From: Escherichia phage EC128 | Strand: one strand, 5' to 3' | Sequence record: ON210139.1 | Length of the DNA stretch: 64,000 bases | In this document: in pieces, positions 4,835-53,349 of the stretch | Layout: every line of letters begins with the position of its first letter | How positions within the stretch are numbered: the stretch's first letter is position 1 | Translations under genes and position numbers: made by a program | The notes under the pieces: generated by a model | Told to the model about the DNA's origin: nothing | Database searches by the model: none | What the model saw: the letters and a program-made list of their open reading frames with translations, nothing else

Positions 4835-5500
4835 ATGTTCCATTACACTTATAAAATAACAAATAAAATTAATAATAAAATTTATATTGGTGTGCATTCT
4901 ACCGAAAATTTAGATGATGGATATATGGGTTCTGGTAAATTATTAAAAAGAGCCCAAGATAAATATGGTATAGAAAATTTTTCTAAAGAAATATTAGAGT
5001 ATTTTGATGATAAAGAATCTATGCTTGAAGCCGAGAAAAATATTGTCACAGAAGAGTTTTTAAATAGACCAGATGTGTATAATTTAAAACTTGGCGGTGA
5101 AGGTGGATGGGACCATATAAATATTCCTGGGATGCTAAACCAGAAGAAAGACGCTAGTTTAAAAGGAGCTAAATCGTTTAAGTCACGTTTTAAAAATGAT
5201 ATTTTACTTCAAGAAAAATATCGTAAACATGGTTCAAATGTATTTAAACGCTTGTGGTCAACTCCTGAATACAGGGAAAAATTTTTAAATAATAGCAGAT
5301 TTTTAAATAAGCATCATACTCCTGAAACTATTAATAAAATGAAAGAATCTCACGCCAGAAATAAACACCAACAGGGCGAAAAGAATTCCCAATTTGGTAT
5401 GATGTGGATTCATTCATTAGATGAAAAAGTTTCTAAACGTATTAAGAAAACTGACCCAATTCCAGAAGGATGGTTTAAAGGTCGAAAAATGAAATTTTAA
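4835..5500 (+). CDS. segB: GIY-YIG homing endonuclease SegB-like
   Basis: 221 aa; N-terminal YTYKITNKINNKIYIGVHS...DGYMGSG; NUMOD-like basic repeats; inserted between tRNA-Ile and tRNA-Arg. Confidence 0.8.
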   Translation: MFHYTYKITNKINNKIYIGVHSTENLDDGYMGSGKLLKRAQDKYGIENFSKEILEYFDDKESMLEAEKNIVTEEFLNRPDVYNLKLGGEGGWDHINIPGMLNQKKDASLKGAKSFKSRFKNDILLQEKYRKHGSNVFKRLWSTPEYREKFLNNSRFLNKHHTPETINKMKESHARNKHQQGEKNSQFGMMWIHSLDEKVSKRIKKTDPIPEGWFKGRKMKF

Positions 5501-5503
5501 TTA

Positions 5504-5580
<77 letters not shown>

Positions 5581-5895
5581 AACAAGAAGCCGGGTCGCTA
5601 CCGGTAAGTCGTCGGACTGATGTTCCCTGAGTAAGGAATTGCGTTAATAATCTTTGCGTTTATTGATGCCCTCTTACATCACAGCAGAAACGGCGCACCG
5701 AATTATCGATTCGAGGAAATATCTTTGCCGTAAGCCGAGTAGCGTTTTTGACGGAACGTTCGGATATGGTCGAGATATGGCCTTTTAAAAATATTGAGTA
5801 GCGTCAACTACTTAATAACCGGGTTCAAGTCCCGGCGTTTCGTACAAACACTTGCCTTAGCAGGTGGAACCCCGACAAGGTTGCCGCAAGGCTTA
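5581..5895 (+). ncRNA. stable small RNA region downstream of tRNA-Arg (T4 RNA C / RNA D-like)
   Basis: GC-rich non-coding stretch with tRNA-like T-arm CCGGGTTCAAGTCCCGG, ending at a terminator; exact RNA ends not determined. Confidence 0.4.
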
Positions 5896-5922
5896 GCCCC
5901 GACCGAAAGGTTGGGGCTTTTT
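5896..5922 (+). terminator. rho-independent terminator
   Basis: GCCCCGACC-GAAA-GGTTGGGGC stem followed by TTTTT; near-identical copy at 6452. Confidence 0.7.
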
Positions 5923-5924
5923 AG

Positions 5925-5932
5925 TATAAATA
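5925..5932 (+). promoter_or_regulatory. late promoter TATAAATA
   Basis: Exact TATAAATA about 35 nt upstream of the 5969 start. Confidence 0.55.
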
Positions 5933-5968
5933 AGTATATTAAAACCACGATTTAAAACAGGAAATAAG

Positions 5969-6443
5969 ATGAAATCATATGCTCAATTTTTAAATGAAGC
6001 GGTGTTAAATGAAGCATCTAGCACCGAAATTCAAGCTGTCGCAAAAGCAGCCATTGCCGCGGGTAAATATTCCTATAAAGATGCTTCCGATGAATCGCGA
6101 TTCCAGTTCGCACGCGACATGAAAGCGGAAGGATTTACGGGAAATGCAGTTAGTATGGCCTGGAAAAGTTTAGTTGCTACTGGAGCTGCTTTTGCAAAGG
6201 CTTCAGGTAAACCTGCTCCTAAAGCAGATCCTAAAGCTGCACAAGAAAAAAAATATTGTTAAAGGAATTATCTCCAAATATGAAGCTATCCTTAAAGAGC
6301 TTTTAGTAATCAAAACTGAAGGCCAAAAGCTAGCTCGTGCTTATAGTTTCAAAGATAATCCGCATGCTCATGACCTAGAGTATGTTGAAGACATCCAAAA
6401 AATTATTAAAGACCGCATTTGGTCTGCTAAACAAATCAAATAA
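5969..6443 (+). CDS. internal-protein-like gene with capsid-targeting N-terminus, interrupted by a frame change at an A8 run (6246-6253)
   Basis: N-terminus MKSYAQFLNEA; frame A stops at 6260-6262; the next 64 sense codons (to 6443) are in another frame and contain no Met; one fewer A would fuse them. Confidence 0.5.
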
Positions 6444-6451
6444 CATTCTTA

Positions 6452-6478
6452 GCCCCGACCAAAAGGTTGGGGCTTTTG
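6452..6478 (+). terminator. rho-independent terminator (duplicate of 5896 hairpin)
   Basis: AGCCCCGACC-AAAA-GGTTGGGGCTTTT. Confidence 0.65.
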
Positions 6479-6590
6479 GTATCTAGGCCTTTCTGGGCCT
6501 CTCTAGGCATTATTTAGTTTCTACCCTTTATAATATATTATCCTATCTTTTAATTGCCCCTCCTGACCCTAGAATTCCCTAAAACTTTTT

Positions 6591-6672
6591 AAAAATTTTT
6601 TCACAAAACTGTTTACATCCCTGTTCTTCCATGGTACTATACAACTATCAACTACTGATACAGAAAACAACT
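6591..6672 (+). promoter_or_regulatory. early promoter inside a conserved cassette (copy A)
   Basis: aaaaattttttcacaaaactgtttaca...atggtactatacaactatcaactactgatacag; near-identical to 50011-50097 and 21347-21433. Confidence 0.6.
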
Positions 6673-6683
6673 TGGAGAACGAA

Positions 6684-6947
6684 ATGGATAATTACGGCGA
6701 ACTGTTCAACTTCTTTATGAAATGTGTTTCAGAAGATTTCGGTCGTACAGTGAATGATATTAAAGTTATCGGTCCTGATCATCCGATGTTTGAAACTTAT
6801 GCGGTAATGGGCAATGAAGACGGTCAGTGGTATACTGTAAAGGTTGTGATTAACATGTTCACTGCTGAAAGTTATGTTAAACTGTCTTCTAAAGTTTACC
6901 ATGATAACGACGAAATCGCAGAAGAATATTTCAATAATATGAAATAA
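6684..6947 (+). CDS. hypothetical acidic protein
   Basis: 87 aa from ATG 6684 with GGAG RBS; ORF open from TTG 6672. Confidence 0.5.
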   Translation: MDNYGELFNFFMKCVSEDFGRTVNDIKVIGPDHPMFETYAVMGNEDGQWYTVKVVINMFTAESYVKLSSKVYHDNDEIAEEYFNNMK

Positions 6948-6985
6948 GTTTACATAGGCTCATGATTGAGATATTATGAGCCTAT
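6948..6985 (+). promoter_or_regulatory. early promoter
   Basis: GTTTACA then GAGATATTAT; overlaps inverted repeat GGCTCAT...ATGAGCC. Confidence 0.5.
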
Positions 6986-7003
6986 ACAAATGAGGAAAAC
7001 ATT

Positions 7004-7339
7004 ATGAAACGTAACTTTAGTAAAGCTTTTTGTAATAGAAATAATTATCCTGAAGAGCTTTTTGAATCTAAGGAATTTAAAGAGTTTAACGAACGTTCTC
7101 AAAACATGCCTGTACAATGGGTGTTAGATTATGCCAATCGTATCTTTGAAGGTGTGCGGGATATTTGTCCTGATGATGAAACTCCTTATTTTAAAAAGGC
7201 TTGGGAACTCGTCAATCAAGCATATATCAATGCTTCAGAATCTTATAAAGGTACTGACGATGATTTTACTTTATTGGCTATCAATGATGCCGTTATCGAG
7301 GCCATTGACGTCTTTATCGATGAGATAGACGAAGAATAA
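7004..7339 (+). CDS. hypothetical acidic protein
   Basis: 111-aa ORF with GAGGAAAA RBS. Confidence 0.55.
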   Translation: MKRNFSKAFCNRNNYPEELFESKEFKEFNERSQNMPVQWVLDYANRIFEGVRDICPDDETPYFKKAWELVNQAYINASESYKGTDDDFTLLAINDAVIEAIDVFIDEIDEE

Positions 7340-19843: not shown

Positions 19844-20305
19844 ATGATTATTAATGAAAACTCTTGGCACTATAAATTATTCAAATTGTTTAACGATGAA
19901 TGGCAACGACCTAAGACACTATGCGCATATTTTTGGTCTATTGCTATTCCTACATTTTTCGTTTCTATTTTTGGATGTGCTATACTCGTAGGGCTAACAA
20001 TTATTTGCGCAGAAAGCCTACAGCGTTGGCTTATTTTTGGTAGTTTATGGACTTTGCTTCCATCAGCATTTATACTTGCGCTTTTGGTTGTTTTACTTAT
20101 TATCGGTTCATTTGTTATTCCTGCACATTTGCGTGAAAAATATAAAGATTATAAATGGAAAAAGGATTATGCTTTACACGTAGAAAATATTGATAGGGCG
20201 TATAAAGGTTTACCTCCTATTCAACCAAAGAAATCGATTATCGTTGAATTTTTAAAAGCTCGTAAAGCTAAAGTATGTCCTGTTATTGAATATAAGGCTG
20301 AATGA
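19844..20305 (+). CDS. membrane protein
   Basis: 153 aa with two long hydrophobic segments. Confidence 0.55.
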   Translation: MIINENSWHYKLFKLFNDEWQRPKTLCAYFWSIAIPTFFVSIFGCAILVGLTIICAESLQRWLIFGSLWTLLPSAFILALLVVLLIIGSFVIPAHLREKYKDYKWKKDYALHVENIDRAYKGLPPIQPKKSIIVEFLKARKAKVCPVIEYKAE

Positions 20306-21315
20306 TGAAAACAGTAATGAAAAGTTATTTTGGCAGTCATCTTTATGGAACTTCTACTCCAGAATCTGATGTAGATTTTAAAGAAATCTTTGTTCCTCCT
20401 GCTCGCGATATTCTTATCGGAAGTGTCAAAGAGCACATGAGTAAAAACACTAACAACACATCATCTAAAAACACTAAAGATGATATTGACCATGAACTAT
20501 ACAGTCTTAAATATTTCTTTAAATTAGCAGCAGATGGTGAAACTGTAGCATTGGATATGCTTCACACTCCACCTGAACTAGTGGTTAAATCTGATTTGCC
20601 TGATGTGTGGAAGTTTATTCAAGACAACCGTTCTCGTTTTTATACGACTAACATGAAATCATATTTAGGATATGTCCGCAAGCAAGCTTCTAAATACGGT
20701 GTCAAGGGTTCTCGTTTGGCTGCATTACGTGATGTATTGAAAGTAGTTAATCAAATCCCTGAGCAATGGATTGATTACCAAGAAGATGGTTCTATTAAGC
20801 AGCGTCGCACTAAAGTTGAAGATATTAAGCATCGTCTTCCAGAAAACGAATTCTGTGAATGGGTGTTCCATAATCATGAGAAAACAGGCCCACAAACGTT
20901 CTACACTGTGTTGGGTCGTAAATATCAGACAACTCTTTCTCTTATTGAGCTTAAGCAGTCACTGAACAAATTAGATGCTGAATACGGTGAACGTGCTCGT
21001 AAGGCCGAAGCCAATGAAGGTATTGACTGGAAAGCTCTGAGCCATGCCTGCCGTGGTGGACTTCAACTATTGGAAATTTACAAAACTGGCGACTTGATTT
21101 ATCCACTCCAAGATGCTCCATTTATTCTCGACGTGAAGTTGGGTAAACATCCATTTAAAACAGTTCAAGAGTTTTTGGAAGATGTGGTCGATCAAGTAGA
21201 AGCAGCATCTACTGAAGCTTCTAAGAACGGTATGCCTAAAACAGTAGACATGAGTTTCTGGGATGACTTCCTTGAGAAGGTCTATCTTGAAAACCACCGA
21301 AGTTATTATAAATGA
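20302..21315 (+). CDS. Pol-beta-superfamily nucleotidyltransferase-like protein
   Basis: 337 aa; N-terminal GSHLYGTSTPESDVDF (GS...D-x-D) with downstream acidic VALDML; ATGA coupling. Confidence 0.55.
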   Translation: MMKTVMKSYFGSHLYGTSTPESDVDFKEIFVPPARDILIGSVKEHMSKNTNNTSSKNTKDDIDHELYSLKYFFKLAADGETVALDMLHTPPELVVKSDLPDVWKFIQDNRSRFYTTNMKSYLGYVRKQASKYGVKGSRLAALRDVLKVVNQIPEQWIDYQEDGSIKQRRTKVEDIKHRLPENEFCEWVFHNHEKTGPQTFYTVLGRKYQTTLSLIELKQSLNKLDAEYGERARKAEANEGIDWKALSHACRGGLQLLEIYKTGDLIYPLQDAPFILDVKLGKHPFKTVQEFLEDVVDQVEAASTEASKNGMPKTVDMSFWDDFLEKVYLENHRSYYK

Positions 21316-21317
21316 TA

Positions 21318-21343
21318 GGGAGCCTTCGGGCTCCCTTTTTTTA
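21318..21343 (+). terminator. rho-independent terminator
   Basis: GGGAGCC-TTCG-GGCTCCC then TTTTTTT. Confidence 0.75.
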
Positions 21344-21346
21344 TTT

Positions 21347-21433
21347 CAAAAATTTTTCACAAAACGGTTTACAAGCATAAAGCTTTATGGTACTATACAA
21401 CTATCAACTACTGATACAGATTTGGAGAATAAA
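21347..21433 (+). promoter_or_regulatory. early promoter inside a conserved cassette (copy B)
   Basis: caaaaatttttcacaaaacggtttaca...atggtactatacaactatcaactactgatacagatttggagaataaaATG. Confidence 0.6.
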
Positions 21434-22402
21434 ATGAAAACTGTAACTATCAATAAGGGTATCTACTTCGGTAAAGAAATCTCTGGAACTTTTGAGCTCT
21501 TAGGTGAATGGTTCCCAGATAATGCTCCGGTAGATGCACAAGGAGATGGTAAAGTTTTTGTTGAAATTGACGGTAAGCGTCGCGGTGTTTGGGTTTACAA
21601 ATCAGACATTTCATATGATGGTGTAAAAGTTGAAGAAGTTAAAGAATCATATGAAGATATGAAAACCCGCATTAATAAAAGATTTAATGTTATGGGAATG
21701 ATGACGAATGGTATTATTAACGGAAACATTCGTTCATTAATTATCTCTGGTGCGGCGGGTATTGGTAAAACGTATTCTTTAGATAAAGCTTTGAATAAAG
21801 CAAATGATAATGGATACATTGAATATAAAAGCATTAACGGTAAAATCTCCGGTATCGGTCTTTATGAACAACTTTGGAATAATCGTGAAGAGAATTCTGT
21901 CCTTTTGATTGATGATGTGGATGTTTTCTCTGATATGGACATTCTTAATCTTCTGAAAGCTGCTCTGGACACTGGAGAGACCCGTAAAGTCTGCTGGAGC
22001 ACTGCATCTTCTTACTTAGAAGAAAAAGGCATTGAGCGTGAGTTTGAATTTAAAGGAACGATTGTTTTTATCACAAACGTTGACATTGACCGCGAATTAG
22101 ACCGTGGTACTAAACTTGCTCCACATTTACAAGCATTAGTGTCCCGCTCAGTTTATTTAGATTTGGGTGTTCACACTAATGAAGAAATTATGGTCAGGGT
22201 TGAAGATGTTATTCTTTCAACTGACATGATGCAAAAGCGCGGTCTTTCTGATGAAGAAACTTATAAAGCATTATCATGGATGAAAGTCAATGTTAATCGT
22301 TTACGCAATGTTTCACTGCGTACTGCTCTTTATCTTGCTGACTTTATTATGACCGACAAAAACGGTTGGGAAGAAATCGCTGAAACAGTATTATTAAAAT
22401 GA
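21434..22402 (+). CDS. AAA+/P-loop ATPase
   Basis: 322 aa; Walker A GAAGIGKT, Walker B LLIDDVD; ORF-track start at 21263 reads through the promoter and is rejected. Confidence 0.6.
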   Translation: MKTVTINKGIYFGKEISGTFELLGEWFPDNAPVDAQGDGKVFVEIDGKRRGVWVYKSDISYDGVKVEEVKESYEDMKTRINKRFNVMGMMTNGIINGNIRSLIISGAAGIGKTYSLDKALNKANDNGYIEYKSINGKISGIGLYEQLWNNREENSVLLIDDVDVFSDMDILNLLKAALDTGETRKVCWSTASSYLEEKGIEREFEFKGTIVFITNVDIDRELDRGTKLAPHLQALVSRSVYLDLGVHTNEEIMVRVEDVILSTDMMQKRGLSDEETYKALSWMKVNVNRLRNVSLRTALYLADFIMTDKNGWEEIAETVLLK

Positions 22403-23118
22403 AAAAATATTTTACTATCTATAAAACTGAAATATTAAATTTAAAGACAGGTATTAAGAAATACTATTATGGTCGACATATAACTAATAATATCAATGAT
22501 TCGTATGTTGGTAGTGGAAATTATATAGAACGTGTAAAAGTGTCAAATGACCACATATTATCAAAAACGGTTTTAGAAGTTTTTGATAATTATGATAAAA
22601 TGGTACAAGCTGAAATATTATATATCATGGCAGGTAAATTGAAATATGGGAAAAACTGTGTTAACCTGTCATACGGGGGTGAAGGAGGAAAGGTTGCAGA
22701 TGAAACTAGGATAAAATGCAAAAAGCATTCTATAAATTTATGGAAAAATCCTAATCATATACAGCATATGAAGAAAAAGATGAAAGAGGTCACATCCACG
22801 CCGGAAGCTAAATTAAACACTTCAATAAAAACTTCGCAACGATATAAGGACCCGGTTTTTGTTAGAAAAGTTAGTAATATTATTAAAAAGAAACTAAGCA
22901 ATCCTGTAGTAAAAGAAAAGCATATTAATGGAATTAAAGCTGCAAAGCGTTCTCATTTAACTATATGGCAGTATGAAGATGAATTATTCGAGCTCTGGAA
23001 AGAAACTAAATGTGGATGGAGAAAATTTACAAAGGAAGCTATAAAACACGGATATCCAAATGAACCGTATCGTAGTATGGTATCAACTTTTCAGAAAAGA
23101 CATTTAGAAGAATCCTAA
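22399..23118 (+). CDS. GIY-YIG homing endonuclease (seg-like)
   Basis: 239 aa; N-terminal KYYYGRHITNNINDSYVGSG; basic C-terminal DNA-binding-like repeats. Confidence 0.7.
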   Translation: MKKYFTIYKTEILNLKTGIKKYYYGRHITNNINDSYVGSGNYIERVKVSNDHILSKTVLEVFDNYDKMVQAEILYIMAGKLKYGKNCVNLSYGGEGGKVADETRIKCKKHSINLWKNPNHIQHMKKKMKEVTSTPEAKLNTSIKTSQRYKDPVFVRKVSNIIKKKLSNPVVKEKHINGIKAAKRSHLTIWQYEDELFELWKETKCGWRKFTKEAIKHGYPNEPYRSMVSTFQKRHLEES

Positions 23119-23200
23119 GACAAAAAGGCAGTTCAGAAATAGATTATATGGACTGCCATTAAAAAGATGACTAGAATTAAACTGGTGAATGGAGGTAGTG

Positions 23201-23503
23201 ATGTTATACTCAAAGGCTCGTGAAATTTACGAAACTAAGATTAAAGAAGCTGTATTTCAGTTCGCAACGACAATGCGATGGACAAATGATTGGGAGTATT
23301 CAAAAAATCATAAGAAGCCCATGGTGACAAGAAAGGCTCATATGTTAGTGTTAATAGACCGTGAGCAGATTAAAGCCCGAGAAGCCCTCCAGAATCATAA
23401 AAAGGCTGCCTTTGAATGGTTTATGGATAACACTGCTCCTGAGACTAAGAAAGCGGTAAGCGCGTGGTTCAGTGGAAAAAATTGTGAAAGAAGTTTCTTT
23501 TAG
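23201..23503 (+). CDS. hypothetical protein
   Basis: 100 aa from ATG 23201 after GGAGG. Confidence 0.5.
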   Translation: MLYSKAREIYETKIKEAVFQFATTMRWTNDWEYSKNHKKPMVTRKAHMLVLIDREQIKAREALQNHKKAAFEWFMDNTAPETKKAVSAWFSGKNCERSFF

Positions 23504-24555: not shown

Positions 24556-25443
24556 ATGTCAGCGGTAATTAATAATGTCAATGCAGTAATTAAATCTTTA
24601 GTTAATAAAAAATCAAATGAATGGACTGTACTTCAACGCGACAAGTCAGATAAATTTTTTCATAAATTTAACCCAGTACTAAATTTAAATGTTATTGATA
24701 AAGATGTTCACGCCGAAATTTTAGATAAGTTTAAAGTTGATATTGGATTTGGATTAGAAAAACATTTACAACGAACAAACGAGTCTGGAATGCTTTTATC
24801 TAATCGCATCATGAAAGCCCTTAATAAAATTGGAGCATTGTCTCGCATTAACGCGAGTGAAATTCTTCGCAATTATAATAAAGGATATGACCTTTATGGC
24901 CGACTAATGCCAAAATTATCATTCGACCAAATGATTGCGGATTTGTGGGAAAATCAACGACGATTATTAGCATTAGGTGCTCGATTAGCTAAAGGTCTAG
25001 ATAAACAAATGATTTTTAAAACTAATAATACAGAAGACCTTAAATGCTTTAAATTTAGTACTCGTGGAGATGATTATTACGTCAGAGCTCACTCTACAGA
25101 TTATGTTAATATGGGGCATCATCTCTGTTTAGCTTTTGAAGTTTTAAAAGAAGCTGGAACATTAGAATATGTGTCTGGTGCTAAATGCCCGATTGGTTCA
25201 AGTTGTATTTTAATTTATCGCCCGGATGAATCCAGTTCATCTAAATTGCCTACAAAACCTGCACCAGTTCGTAGTAACGAAAAACATTCTGAACAAATTG
25301 ATTATTTTAATAAGCAAATTGAAGAGCTGAATATTTCTATTCAACGATATGACGATGAAATTTTCAGACTATCTGGATTGAGTAGTAAAGCTAAATCTGA
25401 ACGTGAAAAATTAATTAAAATTGTTGATTTACTTAAATCTTAA
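24556..25443 (+). CDS. paralog family member 1 (coiled-coil C-terminus)
   Basis: 295 aa from ATG 24556 with GAGG RBS. Confidence 0.55.
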   Translation: MSAVINNVNAVIKSLVNKKSNEWTVLQRDKSDKFFHKFNPVLNLNVIDKDVHAEILDKFKVDIGFGLEKHLQRTNESGMLLSNRIMKALNKIGALSRINASEILRNYNKGYDLYGRLMPKLSFDQMIADLWENQRRLLALGARLAKGLDKQMIFKTNNTEDLKCFKFSTRGDDYYVRAHSTDYVNMGHHLCLAFEVLKEAGTLEYVSGAKCPIGSSCILIYRPDESSSSKLPTKPAPVRSNEKHSEQIDYFNKQIEELNISIQRYDDEIFRLSGLSSKAKSEREKLIKIVDLLKS

Positions 25444-25451
25444 GGAACACC

Positions 25452-26471
25452 ATGAAAACTCGTTCTCAAATTGAAGATATGGTTCGTAATGCCAGTTATA
25501 CTCGTGATGTTATGACATTTTTGTGCCAAAATAATTTAGACCCTGATAAAGTTAATCGTGATATTCACTTTAAATATCTAAATAGCATTGAATTGTTACG
25601 TCATTTTAGTAAAGCGGGGTATATTACACAAATGACTGCTCGTGAGCAGCTCACCGATTTCTGTAAAACTATTGATTATAAAAATCCTCTATTTGTTCAA
25701 GGCGTTGGTCAGAGTAAGGTCGATTTATCATCTGGATTTTTCAATCCAAATCATTATCGTCTTGAATGGAGATTTATTGCTCTATTCCGTAAACAATTAA
25801 AGCAAATTTTGTCTACTGCTAGTCGATTAAAAGGTTCTGATATTAACTTAAAGAATCTGAAATTTGATGGTTATACTCTTCAAATGGAAGTAAGACCATC
25901 TAAAGAAAATAATAGAACTGCACGAATTAGCTTTAAGCCTAATACTAAAAATTCTCTTTCAATTTGTGAATGCCTTAAATCGCAGTTGACAGAAGCATTT
26001 AAGTATATGGATGTTGTTGCTGCTGTTCAATCTAAGATTTTACCTCGTTTTGAGCGAAATTGGGAACATACAACAACATATGAACTTGATATGATCGTTT
26101 CATTTAAATACGATTTTTTGAGAAAGGACGAAGTCCCGCAAGAGAAAAAGCAAGAAGTGCAAGATAACTTAAATTTATCCAATTACTCATCAAACGATCC
26201 TAAATTTTGGATGTATAGTTCAGGTAATAAAGATGCATGGAAATTCAATAAAGTGAATTTTCTTCCTGTTGAAAATCCGAGTCTTAAACCTGTTGAAAAA
26301 TGGCACGCGGATGCGATTGAGAAGTCTATCAAGGCAGTAGATGATGAACTCGTTAAAGCAACTAATGAAGTGTTAGAAGCTGAAAAGATGTTAGAAAAAG
26401 CTCAAGAAAAAGTCAAAAATCTCGCGAAGCAACGTTCTAAACTGAACAATGCACTAAATGCACTAAACTAG
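25452..26471 (+). CDS. paralog family member 2
   Basis: 339 aa; shares R.I..FR.FKKQILKSASKL-type motif with member 3. Confidence 0.6.
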   Translation: MKTRSQIEDMVRNASYTRDVMTFLCQNNLDPDKVNRDIHFKYLNSIELLRHFSKAGYITQMTAREQLTDFCKTIDYKNPLFVQGVGQSKVDLSSGFFNPNHYRLEWRFIALFRKQLKQILSTASRLKGSDINLKNLKFDGYTLQMEVRPSKENNRTARISFKPNTKNSLSICECLKSQLTEAFKYMDVVAAVQSKILPRFERNWEHTTTYELDMIVSFKYDFLRKDEVPQEKKQEVQDNLNLSNYSSNDPKFWMYSSGNKDAWKFNKVNFLPVENPSLKPVEKWHADAIEKSIKAVDDELVKATNEVLEAEKMLEKAQEKVKNLAKQRSKLNNALNALN

Positions 26472-26528
26472 TTTACTTTGCCACAAGGATGTGGTATAAT
26501 GTTCTTACTTTCTACTGAGGAGATTATT

Positions 26529-27530
26529 ATGACTCGTAACGAATATATCAAATCATTCAATAGCGTTATTGATGATAAAGTTAAACCTGTGTTTAGTCAG
26601 AATAGTGTTATTTCCATTATCAATCAATGGCTAAATAATATTGATGTAAGCATTGTTTCTTCCAGCAAATTTATTCACGAAGTTCGTGAAATTTCTAGTC
26701 GTACAGATAAAGATGACATTAAGAAAACCTTTAAAGGGTCTCGTCTTCTTTCATACTTAGTCAACAGAGATATTCTTGGTAAATTTGGGAAAGAAATTAA
26801 ACGAACTAAAGATGTAATAGGATACAGTTGGTTCGGTGATGTTAATTCTTATCATCTTAATAATAAAGAAGACCCTGAGAATATTTTTACTCGTCGTTGG
26901 ATTAGTAATTTTAGACTTTTCAAGAAGCAAATTCTAAAATCAGCTTCTAAATTATGCTATGGTGATTATCGTCAAATCCATCCTTGGGCTTCTGATATGA
27001 TTATCATAAAAGAATATGAGCTTGATAAAAATAAAGCAGCTATTTTTGTGAATTATGAATTTTTTACACCAGAAGCTAATCAAAAGAACATTAATAAATT
27101 TTTCTCAATTGCTAGCGATATAACTCGTCAGTTAGAGACCGCATTACTTTGTATGGAAACAGTAGAAAATATTCATACTTATCCTTTTAAGAATATATGC
27201 GGTTGGGAAGGATATAAAATTGTAGTTAGTCTCCGTGAAGTAAAGTGTGCGTACTCACCGACTGATAAAGAAATTTACCAACAAAAATGTGATGAAATTG
27301 TGAATACTCCTAAAGAAGAAACTACCCTTGAGGAACTAATGGAATGTCTTGACGATTCGCCTGAACCAGTAGAAATTCGTCCAGAAGTTATTGCACTAGA
27401 AAAAGCTTATAAAGAAGTTCTAGAAATTTCTAATAAAGCGCAGAAAGAATATGAGCAGGCTAAAAGGATTTGGGAAGAATCTGTTAATCGCCTGGATCGT
27501 CTTGAACAAGCTTTACAGTTAATTAAGTAA
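26529..27530 (+). CDS. paralog family member 3
   Basis: 333 aa from ATG 26529 with GAGGAG RBS. Confidence 0.6.
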   Translation: MTRNEYIKSFNSVIDDKVKPVFSQNSVISIINQWLNNIDVSIVSSSKFIHEVREISSRTDKDDIKKTFKGSRLLSYLVNRDILGKFGKEIKRTKDVIGYSWFGDVNSYHLNNKEDPENIFTRRWISNFRLFKKQILKSASKLCYGDYRQIHPWASDMIIIKEYELDKNKAAIFVNYEFFTPEANQKNINKFFSIASDITRQLETALLCMETVENIHTYPFKNICGWEGYKIVVSLREVKCAYSPTDKEIYQQKCDEIVNTPKEETTLEELMECLDDSPEPVEIRPEVIALEKAYKEVLEISNKAQKEYEQAKRIWEESVNRLDRLEQALQLIK

Positions 27531-27582
27531 TTTAAAGCCAAGGATGGCTCGGAGTATAAATCATTAACCAAGTGAGAAGAAC

Positions 27583-28512
27583 ATGAAAACTCGTAAACAT
27601 TATATTGATTATTTTGACAGCCTTATTACTAAACATCGTAATTATCAGATCGGGCACAGAGCAGTAATCAATAATATTCTTCGTGATTTCCTTCAATATG
27701 TTGGCCAGGAAAATCATATCTGTAAAGATACTCAGAACGCTTATTCTCATTCGTTAGGCAATTTGCTTCAATGGTTTAAACGTTCTCGTCTGTTATCTTC
27801 TACTGTAGCTCGTGATAACATTGAAAACTTTATGAAGCCGAGCTTCATTAAATCTGCGACATCTATAACCGATTTGGTTGAATTTACTATTGTTAACGAT
27901 GTTAAAAAGACCCATTTGGCTGATTGGTTATCTACCATTCCCGAAACTAAATTTGCTGATAAATTCGCTTGTCAATTCAATGACCAAGTGAATATGCTTT
28001 TTAAGCATGCTCGTAAACTATTTACCGCGGGCGATGACCGTACAAATACAGTTCATGTTAAGGATTGGGTTATTGCTGATGAAGTAACACATAAGCCAGG
28101 TGGTTCATCAGTATTAATTAATATCCAGGTTCCTTATTATTACTCACGTAATCTCGGCACCATGAACTCTAGAGAAATTAATAAGCACAACAAAACTATT
28201 CGTTCGTTGTCTTATAAACTCCGCATGATGTTAAAAATCATGGACGTAGTAGAAATGTATGACGAAACCGAAGATAATGGTTCAATGCTGTACAGTTCAC
28301 GCATTCTAATTAAACTGAAGAACCCTAATACATATAAGCCAGTTGTAAAAGAACCTAAAGCAGAAAAGGCTGATAACCTGAGTGAAGAACGCGAATATCT
28401 CAAATCTCGACTGGTTGAAGTTGAAGCCCAGATTGCCGAACACACCAAATTGTTAAAAGCTCTTAATGCAAAAGCAAATGGTTTACGTAATGCTATTGAG
28501 GTACTGAAATGA
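27583..28512 (+). CDS. paralog family member 4
   Basis: 309 aa; N-terminus MKTRKHYIDYF resembles member 2 MKTRSQIEDMV. Confidence 0.6.
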   Translation: MKTRKHYIDYFDSLITKHRNYQIGHRAVINNILRDFLQYVGQENHICKDTQNAYSHSLGNLLQWFKRSRLLSSTVARDNIENFMKPSFIKSATSITDLVEFTIVNDVKKTHLADWLSTIPETKFADKFACQFNDQVNMLFKHARKLFTAGDDRTNTVHVKDWVIADEVTHKPGGSSVLINIQVPYYYSRNLGTMNSREINKHNKTIRSLSYKLRMMLKIMDVVEMYDETEDNGSMLYSSRILIKLKNPNTYKPVVKEPKAEKADNLSEEREYLKSRLVEVEAQIAEHTKLLKALNAKANGLRNAIEVLK

Positions 28513-28805
28513 AAAAGCGCTTATTAGAAGATATTGCCGAAGCTTCAGATTTTCCTGAATGGACTCCATGCGCTGGGTTTGATAAAGGGCTGCTAGTTAC
28601 CGACGATTTAGACTTTAAACCTCCAGCATGGGATGCCATTATGGCTATGGTTAGTCGTCGTGAGCAATCTTCTAAGAATGTTCCAAACTGCCCAAAGTGT
28701 GGTACTGAACAGGTACAATTAGTTCATTGGCAGACTAGTATTCTTCGTTATAAATGTCGTCATTGCAAACACCGATTTAACCGAGAAGAAAATGACCAAG
28801 CGTAA
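28509..28805 (+). CDS. zinc-ribbon small protein
   Basis: 98 aa; CPKCG...CRHCKH. Confidence 0.5.
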
Positions 28806-29035: not shown

Positions 29036-29299
29036 ATGTTTAAAGTATATGGTTATGATAGCAACATCCACAAATGCGTGTATTGCGATAATGCAAAACG
29101 TCTTTTGACCGTGAAGAAACAGCCGTTTGAATTTATCAACATTATGCCGGAAAAAGGTGTTTTTGATGATGAGAAAATCGCTGAGCTTCTGACTAAACTA
29201 GGTCGTGATACTCAAATCGGCTTAACAATGCCTCAGGTATTTGCTCCTGATGGAAGTCATATTGGTGGATTTGACCAATTGCGGGAATACTTTAAATGA
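29036..29299 (+). CDS. nrdC: phage glutaredoxin/thioredoxin NrdC
   Basis: 87 aa, MFKVYGYDSNIHKCVYCDNAKRLL with CVYC active site. Confidence 0.9.
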   Translation: MFKVYGYDSNIHKCVYCDNAKRLLTVKKQPFEFINIMPEKGVFDDEKIAELLTKLGRDTQIGLTMPQVFAPDGSHIGGFDQLREYFK

Positions 29300-29511
29300 T
29301 GCTCGAAGGAACTGATTATATCCATGATTACCGCGGAAGCGCGGTATATGTAGGTGATGAAGTTGTAGTTTATTATGGGTATGGAACTTTGATGACAGCA
29401 AAGGTTATTCAAATTAAAAATAATCGTGCTAAACTTGAAGTTTATTATTCTAATGGTGAAAAGTCTATTTCTAAGTGGAAATATGGCGATTGTATGGTCA
29501 AACTGGGGTAA
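29296..29511 (+). CDS. hypothetical small protein
   Basis: 71 aa, ATGA coupling to nrdC. Confidence 0.5.
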   Translation: MMLEGTDYIHDYRGSAVYVGDEVVVYYGYGTLMTAKVIQIKNNRAKLEVYYSNGEKSISKWKYGDCMVKLG

Positions 29512-29513
29512 AT

Positions 29514-29684
29514 ATGATTTACGATATTAATGTAGCAAGAGCTCCGTCAATGGTTACTATTCCTGCTAAAGAACTAGATCGTCTTCATAAAATTGAAGAA
29601 CTTCTTTGGGAAATTGAATCTGATTTGCCATCAGGATTAGAATCCTGGATTGATTATGAAGAACTTAATAAGCTTCGGGGTTAA
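29514..29684 (+). CDS. hypothetical acidic small protein
   Basis: 56 aa from ATG 29514. Confidence 0.4.
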   Translation: MIYDINVARAPSMVTIPAKELDRLHKIEELLWEIESDLPSGLESWIDYEELNKLRG

Positions 29685-29806
29685 ACCTTGGTGGGCGGCT
29701 AGATGGGAAACTGTAGAGCCAGAGCCGGAAGAACCGGTTTACACTGATGAAGAAACAGTATATAATGAACCAACGATAAATGACTTAATTGATATGGAGA
29801 TGGGAC

Positions 29807-30292
29807 ATGATTACAGTAGATAAGTGGTTTAGAATTAATCGTGCTGATACAGGGCTATGTAATTACTGGCCGGAACTTAGTGCAGGTACTGTCTTTAAAG
29901 TTCGTGAACTTGCAAAAGAATGTGAAGATGATATAGAGCCTGACACTGGAATTGTTGAAATTGAACTTTCCGACGGAAAGATTATTAATATCTATGATAA
30001 GCCAATTACATATTGGTGCTTATGGAATACTGAATCAGTCGAAAATGGCGAAATTGAAGAAGTTGTAGAGCGAACTAATCAAGTTGTTCAGAAGCCTAAA
30101 GCCGATTTTCAAGGTGAACGTATTTCATACGCACTAGCTAAATTAGCTGCGCAAGAAAATAACGATGGCTATGAAGGTAACCTGATGCAAGCTGCCGCAG
30201 AGTACATTGAATGGCTTGAAACTCAAATTTCTTTTTCTGACCAAAAGATTCGGCAATATAAGCGATTGAATCAAATGTTTTACAATACTTGA
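29807..30292 (+). CDS. pin: Pin-like protein (host protease inhibitor position)
   Basis: 161 aa from ATG 29807; just upstream of gene 49; assigned by size and synteny. Confidence 0.5.
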   Translation: MITVDKWFRINRADTGLCNYWPELSAGTVFKVRELAKECEDDIEPDTGIVEIELSDGKIINIYDKPITYWCLWNTESVENGEIEEVVERTNQVVQKPKADFQGERISYALAKLAAQENNDGYEGNLMQAAAEYIEWLETQISFSDQKIRQYKRLNQMFYNT

Positions 30293-51878: not shown

Positions 51879-52510
51879 ATGTGCCACATGTTTATAAGTA
51901 TAAACATCCTAAAACTAAAAAGTGGTATATAGGAAGTCATGATGGTCACAACCCGAATTATGACGGTTCGGGTGTAGTTTGGCAACATGCTAAAAAGAAA
52001 TATGGAATAAAATCCTTTAATAAAGAAATATTATATGAAGGACCAATGTTTAGACAGGTTGAAGAAATTATTTTAACTTGTTTAGATGCTGCTAATTGTC
52101 CGGATTCATATAATTTAAAGAATGAAGCATGGGGAGGAAGTTTTCCAGGCAAATTAAATGGAATGTACGGTAAAAAACTATCTCCAGAAGAAAGATATAA
52201 GTGCGGAAATGCCTTTCGTGGAATCAAGCGTCCTGATCATTCTAAAAGAATGAAAGGCGAAGGTAATCCAATGTATGGTAAAAATGAGCAGGCATATGGA
52301 ATTATAAATCGAGCAAAGGAAAATTCTGGTAAAACTTATGAAGAAATTTTTGGCGCAGAAAAAGCTAAAATAATTAAAGAAACGATGTCTAAAAATCGTA
52401 AAGGAAAACCTCATAATTTGATAGAAAAAATATGTCCGCATTGCGGACTAAAAGGACGTGGGCCAAATATGACAAGATACCATTTTGACAAATGTAAGGC
52501 ACTTAAATGA
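51869..52510 (+). CDS. GIY-YIG homing endonuclease (seg-like)
   Basis: 213 aa; HVYKYKHPKTKKWYIGSHDGHNPNYDGSG; overlaps flanking genes at both ends. Confidence 0.7.
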   Translation: MEVNVPHVYKYKHPKTKKWYIGSHDGHNPNYDGSGVVWQHAKKKYGIKSFNKEILYEGPMFRQVEEIILTCLDAANCPDSYNLKNEAWGGSFPGKLNGMYGKKLSPEERYKCGNAFRGIKRPDHSKRMKGEGNPMYGKNEQAYGIINRAKENSGKTYEEIFGAEKAKIIKETMSKNRKGKPHNLIEKICPHCGLKGRGPNMTRYHFDKCKALK

Positions 52511-53349
52511 TTCAATTCGTAATTCCAAGCTATCAACGCGTAGGGGCAGTTTCTGCCCTTGATATGTTTCCGACTGATTATGAACCACATATTGTAGTGC
52601 GTGAACACGAAGAAAAAGCTTATTATGATGCTTATGGGTCTAAAGCTAAAATTGTAACTATTCCTGATGATGTTAATGGAATTGCCGGTACTCGTAAAGC
52701 AATTACTGATATGTATGCAGGTCAACGAATCTGGATGATTGATGATGATACTACTATTCGTATGAGTTCAATACGAAAGAGAGACGATAAACGGCGCGTA
52801 GATAAAATTAATCAATTAACTCGTGAACAGTTCTATGAATTAATTCAATACGTTGAGGATGCTATGGATTGCGGGTATTATCACGGTCATGCTCGTCTAC
52901 CAATTTTTAAAATTACTTCATCTTGGGGTAATTATCGTGAAAACTCATATGGATTCACGAATACATGGTATGACCTCGGAAAACTTACGACAGAACAAAT
53001 TGGGTATGGAAAAATTGATTTATGTGAAGATATGTACGCATTTCTCAATTTAATTAATCAAGGTTATCCGCATTTGGCCTTGTTCAAATATCTAGTTGTA
53101 TCTGGAAAATCACACGCTCCCGGCGGGTGCAGTTCAATTCGTAGTAATTCTAAACATAATAGAGCGCTTGAACAAATCAATAGAGAGTTTCCAGAGCAAG
53201 CTTGTTGGAAAACTTCTAATATTGAAAAACGAAAATCGTTGGGTGAAGAAGACGAGCCATTAAAGGTTCTTCGCATGTGTGTTTCTCGTAAAGAAAAATC
53301 AGAAGCATTTCATAAGTTTAATGCTATTCATCCAATAGCAGTTGATTAA
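52507..53349 (+). CDS. GT-A-type glycosyltransferase at the beta-gt locus (candidate HMC-DNA glucosyltransferase)
   Basis: 280 aa; N-terminal FVIPSYQR and DxD motif WMIDDDT; sits between 42 and uvsX where T4 carries beta-gt. Confidence 0.5.
   Translation: MIQFVIPSYQRVGAVSALDMFPTDYEPHIVVREHEEKAYYDAYGSKAKIVTIPDDVNGIAGTRKAITDMYAGQRIWMIDDDTTIRMSSIRKRDDKRRVDKINQLTREQFYELIQYVEDAMDCGYYHGHARLPIFKITSSWGNYRENSYGFTNTWYDLGKLTTEQIGYGKIDLCEDMYAFLNLINQGYPHLALFKYLVVSGKSHAPGGCSSIRSNSKHNRALEQINREFPEQACWKTSNIEKRKSLGEEDEPLKVLRMCVSRKEKSEAFHKFNAIHPIAVD

What the first reader, a model, noticed from the sequence alone, without database searches (positions are those of the whole stretch)
24556..28512. Tandem array of four diverged paralogs with coiled-coil C-termini
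Four consecutive genes of 295, 339, 333 and 309 aa share local motifs (for example RFIALFRKQLKQILSTASRL versus RWISNFRLFKKQILKSASKL; N-termini MKTRSQIEDMV versus MKTRKHYIDYF) and each ends in a heptad-rich helical tail. Tandem paralog expansion with rapid divergence in an early region is typical of host-interaction or anti-defence families. Nothing in the sequence suggests an enzymatic motif.
Basis: seen in the sequence. Interest (0 to 1): 0.55.

Follow-up and report, generated by a model that had tools for sequence, protein, structure and literature searches.

The report
T4 nrdC.3–nrdC.6 anti-defence paralog array
Four neighbouring early genes of a T4-like phage (nrdC.6, nrdC.5, nrdC.4 and nrdC.3) are very old, highly diverged copies of one non-enzymatic protein with a coiled-coil tail; the T4 version of one copy is already known to switch off the bacterial Dsr1 immune protein, so the other three are good candidates for inhibitors of other host defences.

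Summary
The window is a Tequatrovirus, and the four ORFs are the orthologues of T4 nrdC.6, nrdC.5, nrdC.4 and nrdC.3, called A to D here.

**Homology**
- C and D are clear homologues (BLASTP E 7e-8; hhalign 97.7%).
- B joins C+D only at profile level (hhalign E 2e-5, collinear over 228 columns, 8 SD above permuted nulls).
- A joins only after its profile is widened with Mosigvirus, Karamvirus and Pectobacterium relatives (E 1e-5). A Pectobacterium phage PM2 protein bridges A and B, and Foldseek gives A and B shared neighbours.

**Architecture**
- In the two proteins that were modelled (A and B): a helical N-terminal part, an αα-ββ-α-ββ core and a disordered linker.
- All four share a signature helix and a heptad tail that ends in the same register.
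- There is no enzyme family match and no relative among solved structures.

**Function**
- T4 nrdC.5 (92% identical to B) neutralises the SIR2 defence protein Dsr1 (Srikant et al. 2022).
- Nearby genes pin and 49.2 also counter host factors.

- The copies are ancient and under purifying selection (dN/dS 0.14–0.27), not a recent fast expansion.
- Copy number runs from 1 to 4 across Straboviridae.
- The divergence of D reflects a swapped allelic cassette.

The functions of A, C and D are inferred, not shown.

The parts
24556..25443 (+). Gene A, orthologue of T4 nrdC.6 (295 aa; phrog_2257, Pfam PF26899). It is the most diverged member of the superfamily.
   Evidence: ORF. It is 92% identical to T4 nrdC.6 over 259 aa. 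PHROG E 1.5e-147. AlphaFold2 pLDDT 79. The expanded profile against C+D gives E 9.6e-6.
25452..26471 (+). Gene B, orthologue of T4 nrdC.5 (339 aa; Pfam DUF7235 PF23882; phrog_2351). The T4 orthologue counteracts Dsr1.
   Evidence: Pfam E 9.2e-125 over the full length. It is 92% identical to T4 nrdC.5. Literature: PMC9391042. hhalign against C+D gives E 2.1e-5.
26529..27530 (+). Gene C, orthologue of T4 nrdC.4 (333 aa; phrog_1435, Pfam PF26897).
   Evidence: ATG at 26529 behind a GAGGAG ribosome-binding site. It is 92% identical to T4 nrdC.4. PHROG E 3.5e-166.
27583..28512 (+). Gene D, orthologue of T4 nrdC.3 (309 aa; phrog_1435). It is a divergent allele, only 60% identical to the T4 allele.
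26472..26500 (+). T4-early-type sigma-70 promoter-like site in front of gene C (GTTTAC -35, TGgTATAAT extended -10).
   Evidence: A 10/12 consensus match with TG; sequence read. Function is inferred, not shown.
24940..25002 (+). Signature helix of A (aa 129-149, DLWENQRRLLALGARLAKGLD).
   Evidence: It aligns to the C/D signature helix, and to PM2 FWFITQLRVNWKMFLALGARCQFGK.
25767..25841 (+). Signature helix of B (aa 106-130, WRFIALFRKQLKQILSTASRLKGSD).
26892..26966 (+). Signature helix of C (aa 122-146, RRWISNFRLFKKQILKSASKLCYGD).
27976..28038 (+). Signature helix of D (aa 132-152, FNDQVNMLFKHARKLFTAGDD).
25279..25440 (+). C-terminal heptad or coiled-coil tail of A (aa 242-295).
   Evidence: AlphaFold2 helices 242-271 and 277-294; heptad test 0/1000.
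26292..26468 (+). C-terminal heptad or coiled-coil tail of B (aa 281-339).
   Evidence: AlphaFold2 helix 281-338; heptad test 0/1000.
27381..27527 (+). C-terminal heptad tail of C (aa 285-333).
   Evidence: Heptad test 13/1000. The tail is 63% conserved against 24-40% for the body.
28369..28509 (+). C-terminal heptad tail of D (aa 263-309).
   Evidence: Heptad test 0/1000. The C-terminus-anchored register is shared with B and C.

Best explanation
The four genes are ancient paralogs of one protein superfamily that is specific to Straboviridae. They are non-enzymatic, made early in infection, and sit in an accessory region that already holds known anti-host genes.

In the two members that were modelled (A and B), the protein has a helical N-terminal part, a small αα-ββ-α-ββ core, a disordered linker and a coiled-coil tail. 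All four share the signature helix and the tail. I propose that the tail oligomerises the protein, or docks it to a common partner. I propose that the variable globular body binds, and so blocks, one host immune protein per paralog.

For gene B the target is the SIR2-type NAD-depleting sensor Dsr1. The inhibitor is made early, so it is in place before the late capsid protein that triggers Dsr1 appears.

**Shown:** the homology, the architecture, and the anti-Dsr1 activity of the T4 orthologue (from the literature).
**Inferred:** direct binding, oligomerisation through the tail, and anti-defence roles for A, C and D.
For: **Identity**
- The region is T4-like and its gene order matches T4 nrdC.6 to nrdC.3.

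**Homology**
- C-D.
- B vs C+D.
- A vs C+D.
- Local iterative HMM searches from B pick up D and then the PM2 309-aa protein. Searches from A pick up the same PM2 protein. All the best sub-threshold hits are other array members.
- PHROG scans link PM2 to phrog_26858, phrog_2257 (A) and phrog_2351 (B), while B and C both touch phrog_26858.

**Structure**
- The A and B models share the topology αα-ββ-α-ββ, linker, long helix.
- They share Foldseek neighbours from PM2, fHe-Yen9-01, Mineola and Merlin phages.
- The tails show heptad periodicity and a shared C-terminal register. The tail is better conserved than the body in every orthologue group.

**No enzyme or known fold:**

**Function and context**
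- T4 nrdC.5 expressed in trans restores infection of Dsr1-carrying cells (PMC9391042).
- The Dsr1 sensor is triggered by major capsid protein (preprint PMC12803255).
- Neighbouring genes counter host factors: gp49.2 inhibits OLD (PMC13096335) and pin is annotated as a Lon protease inhibitor.

**Accessory behaviour, typical of such genes**
- Copy number is 1-4 across genera.
- Natural nonsense and frameshift alleles occur.
- The genes are nevertheless under purifying selection.
Against: - Only one of the four has any experimental support. That support is for the T4 orthologue, not this phage, and the mechanism is unknown: no binding data exist.
- The link from A to the others is remote. It is non-significant with the narrow profile, and A against B aligns only in the tail.
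- The models have moderate confidence (pLDDT 79 and 69). Foldseek TM-scores to the shared neighbours are low (0.2-0.5), partly because the tail is flexible.
- Coiled coils can inflate profile scores, although the decisive alignments lie in the globular part.
- Guilt by association in a hyperplastic region is weak evidence.
Confidence: 0.55

Rival explanations
1. The genes are true paralogs, but most of them are not immune inhibitors. They would be early host-takeover or phage-physiology adaptors, for example coiled-coil scaffolds acting on host transcription, nucleoid, membrane or nucleotide-metabolism complexes. On this view the anti-Dsr1 effect of nrdC.5 is one specialised or indirect case.
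For: - No target is known for A, C or D.
- The architecture (a binding body plus a coiled coil) is generic.
- A and C are fairly well conserved across genera (45-52% identity) and under purifying selection. That fits a housekeeping-like accessory role.
- The region also holds nucleotide-metabolism genes, nrdC and nrdD.
Against: - The genes are lost or inactivated in many natural phages and vary in copy number.
- In T4 none of the deletions in the evolved clones, one of which removed nrdC.5, included any of the 62 essential genes.
- The only phenotype on record is counter-defence.
- Neighbouring accessory genes are anti-host factors.
Confidence: 0.25
2. Only B, C and D are paralogs. Gene A (nrdC.6) would be an unrelated gene that happens to sit next to them and has independently acquired a coiled-coil tail.
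For: - Pairwise BLAST and narrow-profile hhalign for A are not significant.
- A against B aligns only over the tail.
- Pfam and PHROGs keep A in a separate family.
Against: - The expanded A profile matches C+D in the globular region at E 9.6e-6, and 0 of 61 permuted nulls reach the score of a similar run without PM2.
- The PM2 309-aa protein is hit by both the A and the B profiles, including across the signature helix.
- The A and B models have the same secondary-structure order and common Foldseek neighbours.
- The C-terminal register is the same, with one extra residue in A.
Confidence: 0.15
3. The similarities are compositional only (AT-rich genome, Lys/Glu-rich helices), and the four genes are unrelated.
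For: Most pairwise BLAST comparisons are non-significant.
Against: - C-D is significant even by BLAST.
- Column-permuted and reversed profiles, which keep composition, never reach the observed scores for B vs C+D or for expanded A vs C+D.
- The alignments are collinear and centred on the globular part.
Confidence: 0.03

Closest known systems
T4 NrdC.5 (Pfam DUF7235, PF23882), the anti-Dsr1 counter-defence gene of phage T4 (Srikant, Guegler & Laub, eLife 2022)
   Same: Gene B is its orthologue: 92% identity, same length, same position between nrdC.6 and nrdC.4, and a full-length Pfam match. Genes C and D, and more remotely A, are paralogs with the same signature helix and tail; the full domain plan was modelled only for A and B.
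   Different: Activity against Dsr1 has been shown only for the T4 protein. A, C and D share about 15-25% identity with it or less, their bodies differ, and they presumably have different targets. Nobody has described them as one family: Pfam keeps three separate entries.
DSAD1 (DSR anti-defence 1) of SPbeta-like Bacillus phages, the inhibitor of DSR2
   Same: It is also a phage-encoded, non-enzymatic protein that neutralises a defence-associated sirtuin. It works by direct binding to the sensor region (abstracts of PMC10973363 and PMC10981675). This is the working model proposed here for NrdC.5.
Other T-even accessory anti-host genes in the same region: Gp49.2 (anti-OLD) and Pin (Lon protease inhibitor)
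   Same: They are small, early, non-essential, variably present genes in the same hyperplastic stretch between nrdC.11 and gene 49. Each disables one host factor.
   Different: They belong to unrelated protein families. This window lacks gp49.2 and gp49.3 altogether.
PHROG phrog_26858 and uncharacterised 300-335-aa proteins of other Straboviridae (Pectobacterium PM2, Karamvirus, Acinetobacter Lazarusvirus, Yersinia, Klebsiella, Citrobacter phages)
   Same: In the loci inspected (PM2, Karamvirus, Acinetobacter AM101) they occupy the same slot upstream of nrdC.2 or nrdC and have a similar length. They are structural neighbours of both the A and B models, and the PM2 protein carries an intermediate signature helix.
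   Different: They are present as one or two copies instead of four. Their sequences are too far away for BLAST or tblastn. Nothing is known about their function.

Membership tests
NrdC.5 / DUF7235 (PF23882), gene B | Full-length match to the family HMM above the curated threshold | tested here: met
   416.6 bits against a cut-off of 30, covering residues 1-339 of the protein and positions 1-307 of 307 in the profile; phrog_2351 E 9.7e-169.
NrdC.5 / DUF7235 (PF23882), gene B | Orthologous position between nrdC.6 and nrdC.4 in a T-even genome | tested here: met
   Gene order matches T4 NC_000866.
NrdC.5 / DUF7235 (PF23882), gene B | Neutralises Dsr1 (restores plating on dsr1+ E. coli) | not testable with these tools
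   Shown only for the T4 protein (PMC9391042). B is 92% identical to it.
NrdC.4/NrdC.3 family (phrog_1435; PF26897), genes C and D | Significant full-length match of both proteins to one family profile and to each other | tested here: met
   phrog_1435 E 3.5e-166 (C) and 4.2e-116 (D); BLASTP E 7e-8; hhalign 97.7%. The precomputed PF26897 label applies to C homologues.
NrdC.6 family (phrog_2257; PF26899), gene A | Full-length match to the family profile and syntenic position | tested here: met
   phrog_2257 E 1.5e-147; PF26899 on all homologues; synteny.
Proposed NrdC.3-6 superfamily (all four genes) | Profile-profile homology in the globular part, including the signature helix [FW]..[FL]R...K.[IL]L..[AG][AS][RK]L..G[DS] | tested here: met
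   B vs C+D E 2.1e-5. Expanded A vs C+D E 9.6e-6. Nulls. A is weaker: narrow profile E 0.03, and A vs B aligns in the tail only.
Proposed NrdC.3-6 superfamily (all four genes) | Shared fold (αα-ββ-α-ββ core, then linker, then C-terminal helix) | tested here: inconclusive
   Only A and B could be modelled. They show the same order of elements and shared BFVD neighbours. There was no direct superposition, no model of C or D, and TM-scores are low.
Proposed NrdC.3-6 superfamily (all four genes) | C-terminal heptad tail ending in ..[KR]L..A[LI]..LK in a fixed register | tested here: met
   Heptad test. The best ungapped offset is 0 for B-D and C-D and -1 for A against the others. B-C is best at a one-heptad shift.
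DSAD1-type anti-sirtuin inhibitors | Sequence or fold relationship to DSAD1 | tested here: not met
Any enzyme family | Match to a catalytic domain or motif | tested here: not met
   Pfam, NCBIfam and PADLOC gave only sub-threshold chance hits.

The most novel reading that the evidence does not exclude
The four proteins, and their relatives in other T4-like phages, form a modular 'one scaffold, many warheads' counter-immunity family. A conserved coiled-coil tail lets the paralogs homo- or hetero-oligomerise into one early complex. Each rapidly exchangeable globular body then blocks, or acts as a decoy for, a different host pattern-recognition sensor. Candidates are the TPR sensors shared by Dsr1 and Avs7, which read phage structural proteins. 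The weak Foldseek resemblance of the B core to tail-terminator and tail-completion proteins would then reflect mimicry of virion proteins.
Probability: 0.12. Interest if true: 0.8.

Novelty: new member of a known kind. Interest (0 to 1): 0.45.

Why it matters
T4 is the best-studied phage, yet nrdC.3, nrdC.4 and nrdC.6 are still annotated as hypothetical, or wrongly as 'thioredoxin'. Tying them by homology to nrdC.5 matters because nrdC.5 is the only known phage inhibitor of Dsr1 found in this search. The link turns three orphan genes into concrete candidates for inhibitors of other E. coli defence systems. It also suggests which part to swap or mutate: the variable body as opposed to the conserved tail. 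Finally, it explains the patchy copy number (1-4) and the nonsense alleles seen among therapeutic-type T-even phages, which may affect host range. The prediction can be tested directly with deletion phages on defence-system libraries.

Tried and rejected
- **Pairwise BLASTP of the four proteins:** only C-D was significant, so pairwise comparison cannot settle the question.
- **Single-sequence tblastn of C against 50,697 phage genomes:** it reaches only the T-even genera, not the wider superfamily.
- **Word-indexed homologue searches with C and with the B and A alignments:** each returned only its own orthologue group, plus one B::D chimera among the B hits.
- **Exhaustive HMMER search with a C+D profile over 1.84 billion cluster representatives:** only 9 clusters matched. 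No outside relatives and no functional clue emerged.
- **PDB sequence and profile searches, NCBIfam and PADLOC:** nothing above noise.
- **The 257-262-aa proteins next to the family member in PM2, Karamvirus and KPV15 (phrog_4750):** checked as possible extra members, but no link was found.
- **The P0139 chimera as possible evidence of recombination between homologous motifs:** rejected. Its junction (B residue 272 to D residue 135, at KVN/QVN) joins non-equivalent positions.
- **'Rapid adaptive divergence' of D:** rejected. dS is saturated and dN/dS is 0.27.
Full report
**1. What the region is.** The 4.2-kb stretch matches 646 phage genomes. Nearly all are Escherichia, Shigella or Yersinia T4-like phages, and the best match is 96.7% to phage AV119, a Tequatrovirus. 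Comparison with the annotated T4 genome and BLAST of ORFs from T4 and 14 metagenomic or viral loci identify the four ORFs:
- A (24556-25443) is T4 nrdC.6.
- B (25452-26471) is T4 nrdC.5.
- C (26529-27530) is T4 nrdC.4.
- D (27583-28512) is T4 nrdC.3.

They lie between nrdC.7 and nrdC.2, upstream of nrdC, pin and gene 49. C starts at the ATG at 26529, behind a GAGGAG ribosome-binding site and a T4-early-type promoter-like site (GTTTAC, 17 nt, TGgTATAAT). Many GenBank records label all these genes 'thioredoxin'. That label is copied from the gene names, and no thioredoxin domain is present.

**2. Are the four related?**
- Pairwise BLASTP shows only C-D (E 7e-8, 24% over 271 aa). PHROGs likewise puts C and D in one family and A and B in two others.
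- I built alignments of orthologues for each gene.
- Profile-profile comparison gives C-D probability 97.7%, E 1.7e-12.
- B against C+D gives E 2.1e-5, probability 77%, over 228 collinear columns that span almost the whole proteins. In my own runs the score was 42.4, against 20.8+-2.6 for block-permuted, 15.4+-2.8 for column-shuffled and 17.0 for reversed profiles. None of 81 nulls reached it.
- A was not significant with its T-even-only profile (E 0.03; 4 of 40 block nulls reached the score).
- Three more distant relatives of A came from syntenic loci: Mosigvirus 331 aa, Karamvirus 332 aa and Pectobacterium PM2 309 aa. With them in the profile, the match to C+D rose to E 9.6e-6, probability 83%. 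Without PM2 it was 3.8e-5, and 0 of 61 nulls reached the score.
The four versions of this signature helix are:
  - A: ..NQRRLLALGARLAKGLD
  - B: RFIALFRKQLKQILSTASRLKGSD
  - C: RWISNFRLFKKQILKSASKLCYGD
  - D: VNMLFKHARKLFTAGDD
- The PM2 protein has an intermediate version, FWFITQLRVNWKMFLALGARCQFGK. It is hit by both the A and the B profiles and by PHROG families of A, of B and of a hub family (phrog_26858) that B and C also touch.
- In local iterative HMM searches over 310 ORFs, every top sub-threshold hit was a member of another array family.

**3. Architecture.** AlphaFold2 models of A (pLDDT 79, pTM 0.66) and B (pLDDT 69) show the same order of elements:
- N-terminal helices;
- two helices, of which the second is the signature helix;
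- a β-hairpin, a helix and a second β-hairpin;
- a low-confidence linker;
- a long C-terminal helix in B, or a helical hairpin in A.

Foldseek against BFVD gives both models a shared set of uncharacterised 300-335-aa proteins from other Straboviridae:

| Phage protein | E for A | E for B |
|---|---|---|
| PM2 | 5.6e-7 | 5.4e-5 |
| fHe-Yen9-01 | 7.9e-4 | 1.6e-5 |
| Mineola | 1.1e-3 | 1.4e-6 |
| Merlin | 7.9e-4 | 2.5e-3 |

The tails have significant heptad periodicity, and in each protein the best heptad window is the tail. Anchored at the C-terminus, B-D and C-D align best at offset 0 and A at offset -1. This gives a common ending ..[KR]L..A[LI]..LK. Within every orthologue group the tail is better conserved (58-72%) than the body (24-51%). 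That argues for a specific interaction rather than a generic spacer.

**4. Distribution and evolution.** A full HMMER pass with the C+D profile over 1.84 billion cluster representatives found only nine clusters. The word-indexed searches found only T-even phage proteins.

Copy number differs by genus:

| Genus or phage | Array content |
|---|---|
| Tequatrovirus | A-B-C-D |
| Gaprivervirus and Dhakavirus | A, a 71-aa ORF, B, C |
| Mosigvirus | A' and D' only |
| PM2 and Karamvirus | one clear member each |
| Acinetobacter Lazarusvirus | one weak candidate (335 aa, B-profile E 3.5e-3) |
| Two Pseudotevenvirus loci | no obvious member in the slot |

tblastn counts in 50,697 phage records are A 741, B 584, C 553 and D 653.

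Against T4, dN/dS is 0.24, 0.22, 0.14 and 0.27 for A to D. This is purifying selection. D and the adjacent nrdC.2 have dS of about 1.15-1.23, against 0.05-0.28 for the flanking genes. This segment is therefore an old allele brought in by recombination. D occurs as at least three allele classes: at least 90%, 75-79% and about 60% identity.

Natural knock-outs exist:
- AV119 carries nonsense codons in B and C, with no indels.
- Phage G8 has a +1 frameshift in C.
- The T4 reference has a frameshifted tail in nrdC.6.

So the duplications are ancient and the genes are dispensable but maintained. This is not a recent, rapidly diverging expansion.

**5. Function.** The library holds one functional report. 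In an experimentally evolved T4 clone that had lost nrdC.5, infection of ECOR17 was blocked by Dsr1. Expressing nrdC.5 alone restored plating on MG1655 carrying dsr1 (PMC9391042). Gene B is 92% identical to that protein.

A 2026 preprint reports that the TPR sensor of E. coli Dsr1 is triggered by phage major capsid protein (PMC12803255). An inhibitor made early would therefore be in place before the trigger appears.

The neighbourhood contains other anti-host genes: gp49.2 against OLD (PMC13096335) and pin against Lon. No paper in the library mentions a function for nrdC.3, nrdC.4 or nrdC.6.

**6. Most likely mechanism.** (Inferred beyond point 5.) Each paralog is a non-catalytic binder. The coiled-coil tail oligomerises it or docks it to a common partner. 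The variable body recognises one host immune protein, which is Dsr1 for B. This works like DSAD1 against DSR2, but there is no sequence or fold evidence of membership in that family. The rivals are a non-immune accessory role for A, C and D, and non-membership of A.

**7. Verdict.** The genes themselves are known T4 ORFs. The unification into one superfamily, the shared architecture and the census appear not to be described in the searched literature. They give a direct, testable prediction. Interest is moderate.

Noticed in passing
window 22399-23118 (+): A 239-aa ORF lies between nrdC.10 (21263-22402) and nrdC.9 (23189-23503). It has no counterpart at this position in T4 and no Pfam hit. It overlaps the nrdC.10 stop by 4 nt. 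It is possibly a mobile, homing-endonuclease-like insertion.
   Followed up: partly
window 29296-29823 (+): T4 genes 49.3 and 49.2 have no match in this window; 49.2 is the OLD inhibitor reported in PMC13096335. Three other small ORFs fill the slot between nrdC and pin, one of them a DUF7205 protein at 29296-29511.
   Followed up: partly
window 27583-28805 (nrdC.3 + nrdC.2): Synonymous divergence from T4 is about 1.15-1.23 here, against 0.05-0.28 in the flanking genes. The 5' boundary lies inside the first 30-60 codons of nrdC.3 or so. This is a recombinational allele cassette. nrdC.3 has at least three allele classes in public genomes.
   Followed up: partly
L001 (phage AV119, OR352949) 5059-7137, equivalent to window 25452-27530: The closest sequenced relative has premature stop codons in both nrdC.5 (codon 48, TTG to TGA) and nrdC.4 (W34, TGG to TAG), with no indels. 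Phage G8 (L010) has a 1-nt insertion in nrdC.4.
   Followed up: yes
L002 (T4 NC_000866) nrdC.6, record 52066-52893: The T4 reference nrdC.6 is 275 aa and has an unrelated C-terminus (..ELIFLFNNMMMKFSDYL), whereas nearly all relatives have a 295-aa protein with the coiled-coil tail. It is apparently a frameshifted allele that has lost the tail.
   Followed up: partly
protein P0139: This is a 299-aa predicted protein that joins nrdC.5 residues 146-272 to nrdC.3 residues 135-309, at a KVN/QVN junction. It is a natural deletion chimera lacking nrdC.4. Its genomic source was not inspected.
   Followed up: no
window 21263-22402 and 20302-21315 (+): nrdC.10 gives only weak, sub-threshold P-loop/STAND-like NTPase matches (nSTAND3/AAA, E about 1e-4). 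nrdC.11 is an RlaP-type nucleotidyltransferase (E 2e-11). A strong terminator-like hairpin at 21317-21336 separates them.
   Followed up: no
L007-L016, about 6840-7070 in each locus: In Gaprivervirus and Dhakavirus a conserved 71-aa ORF sits between the nrdC.6 and nrdC.5 orthologues and overlaps the start of nrdC.5. It is absent from Tequatrovirus.
   Followed up: no
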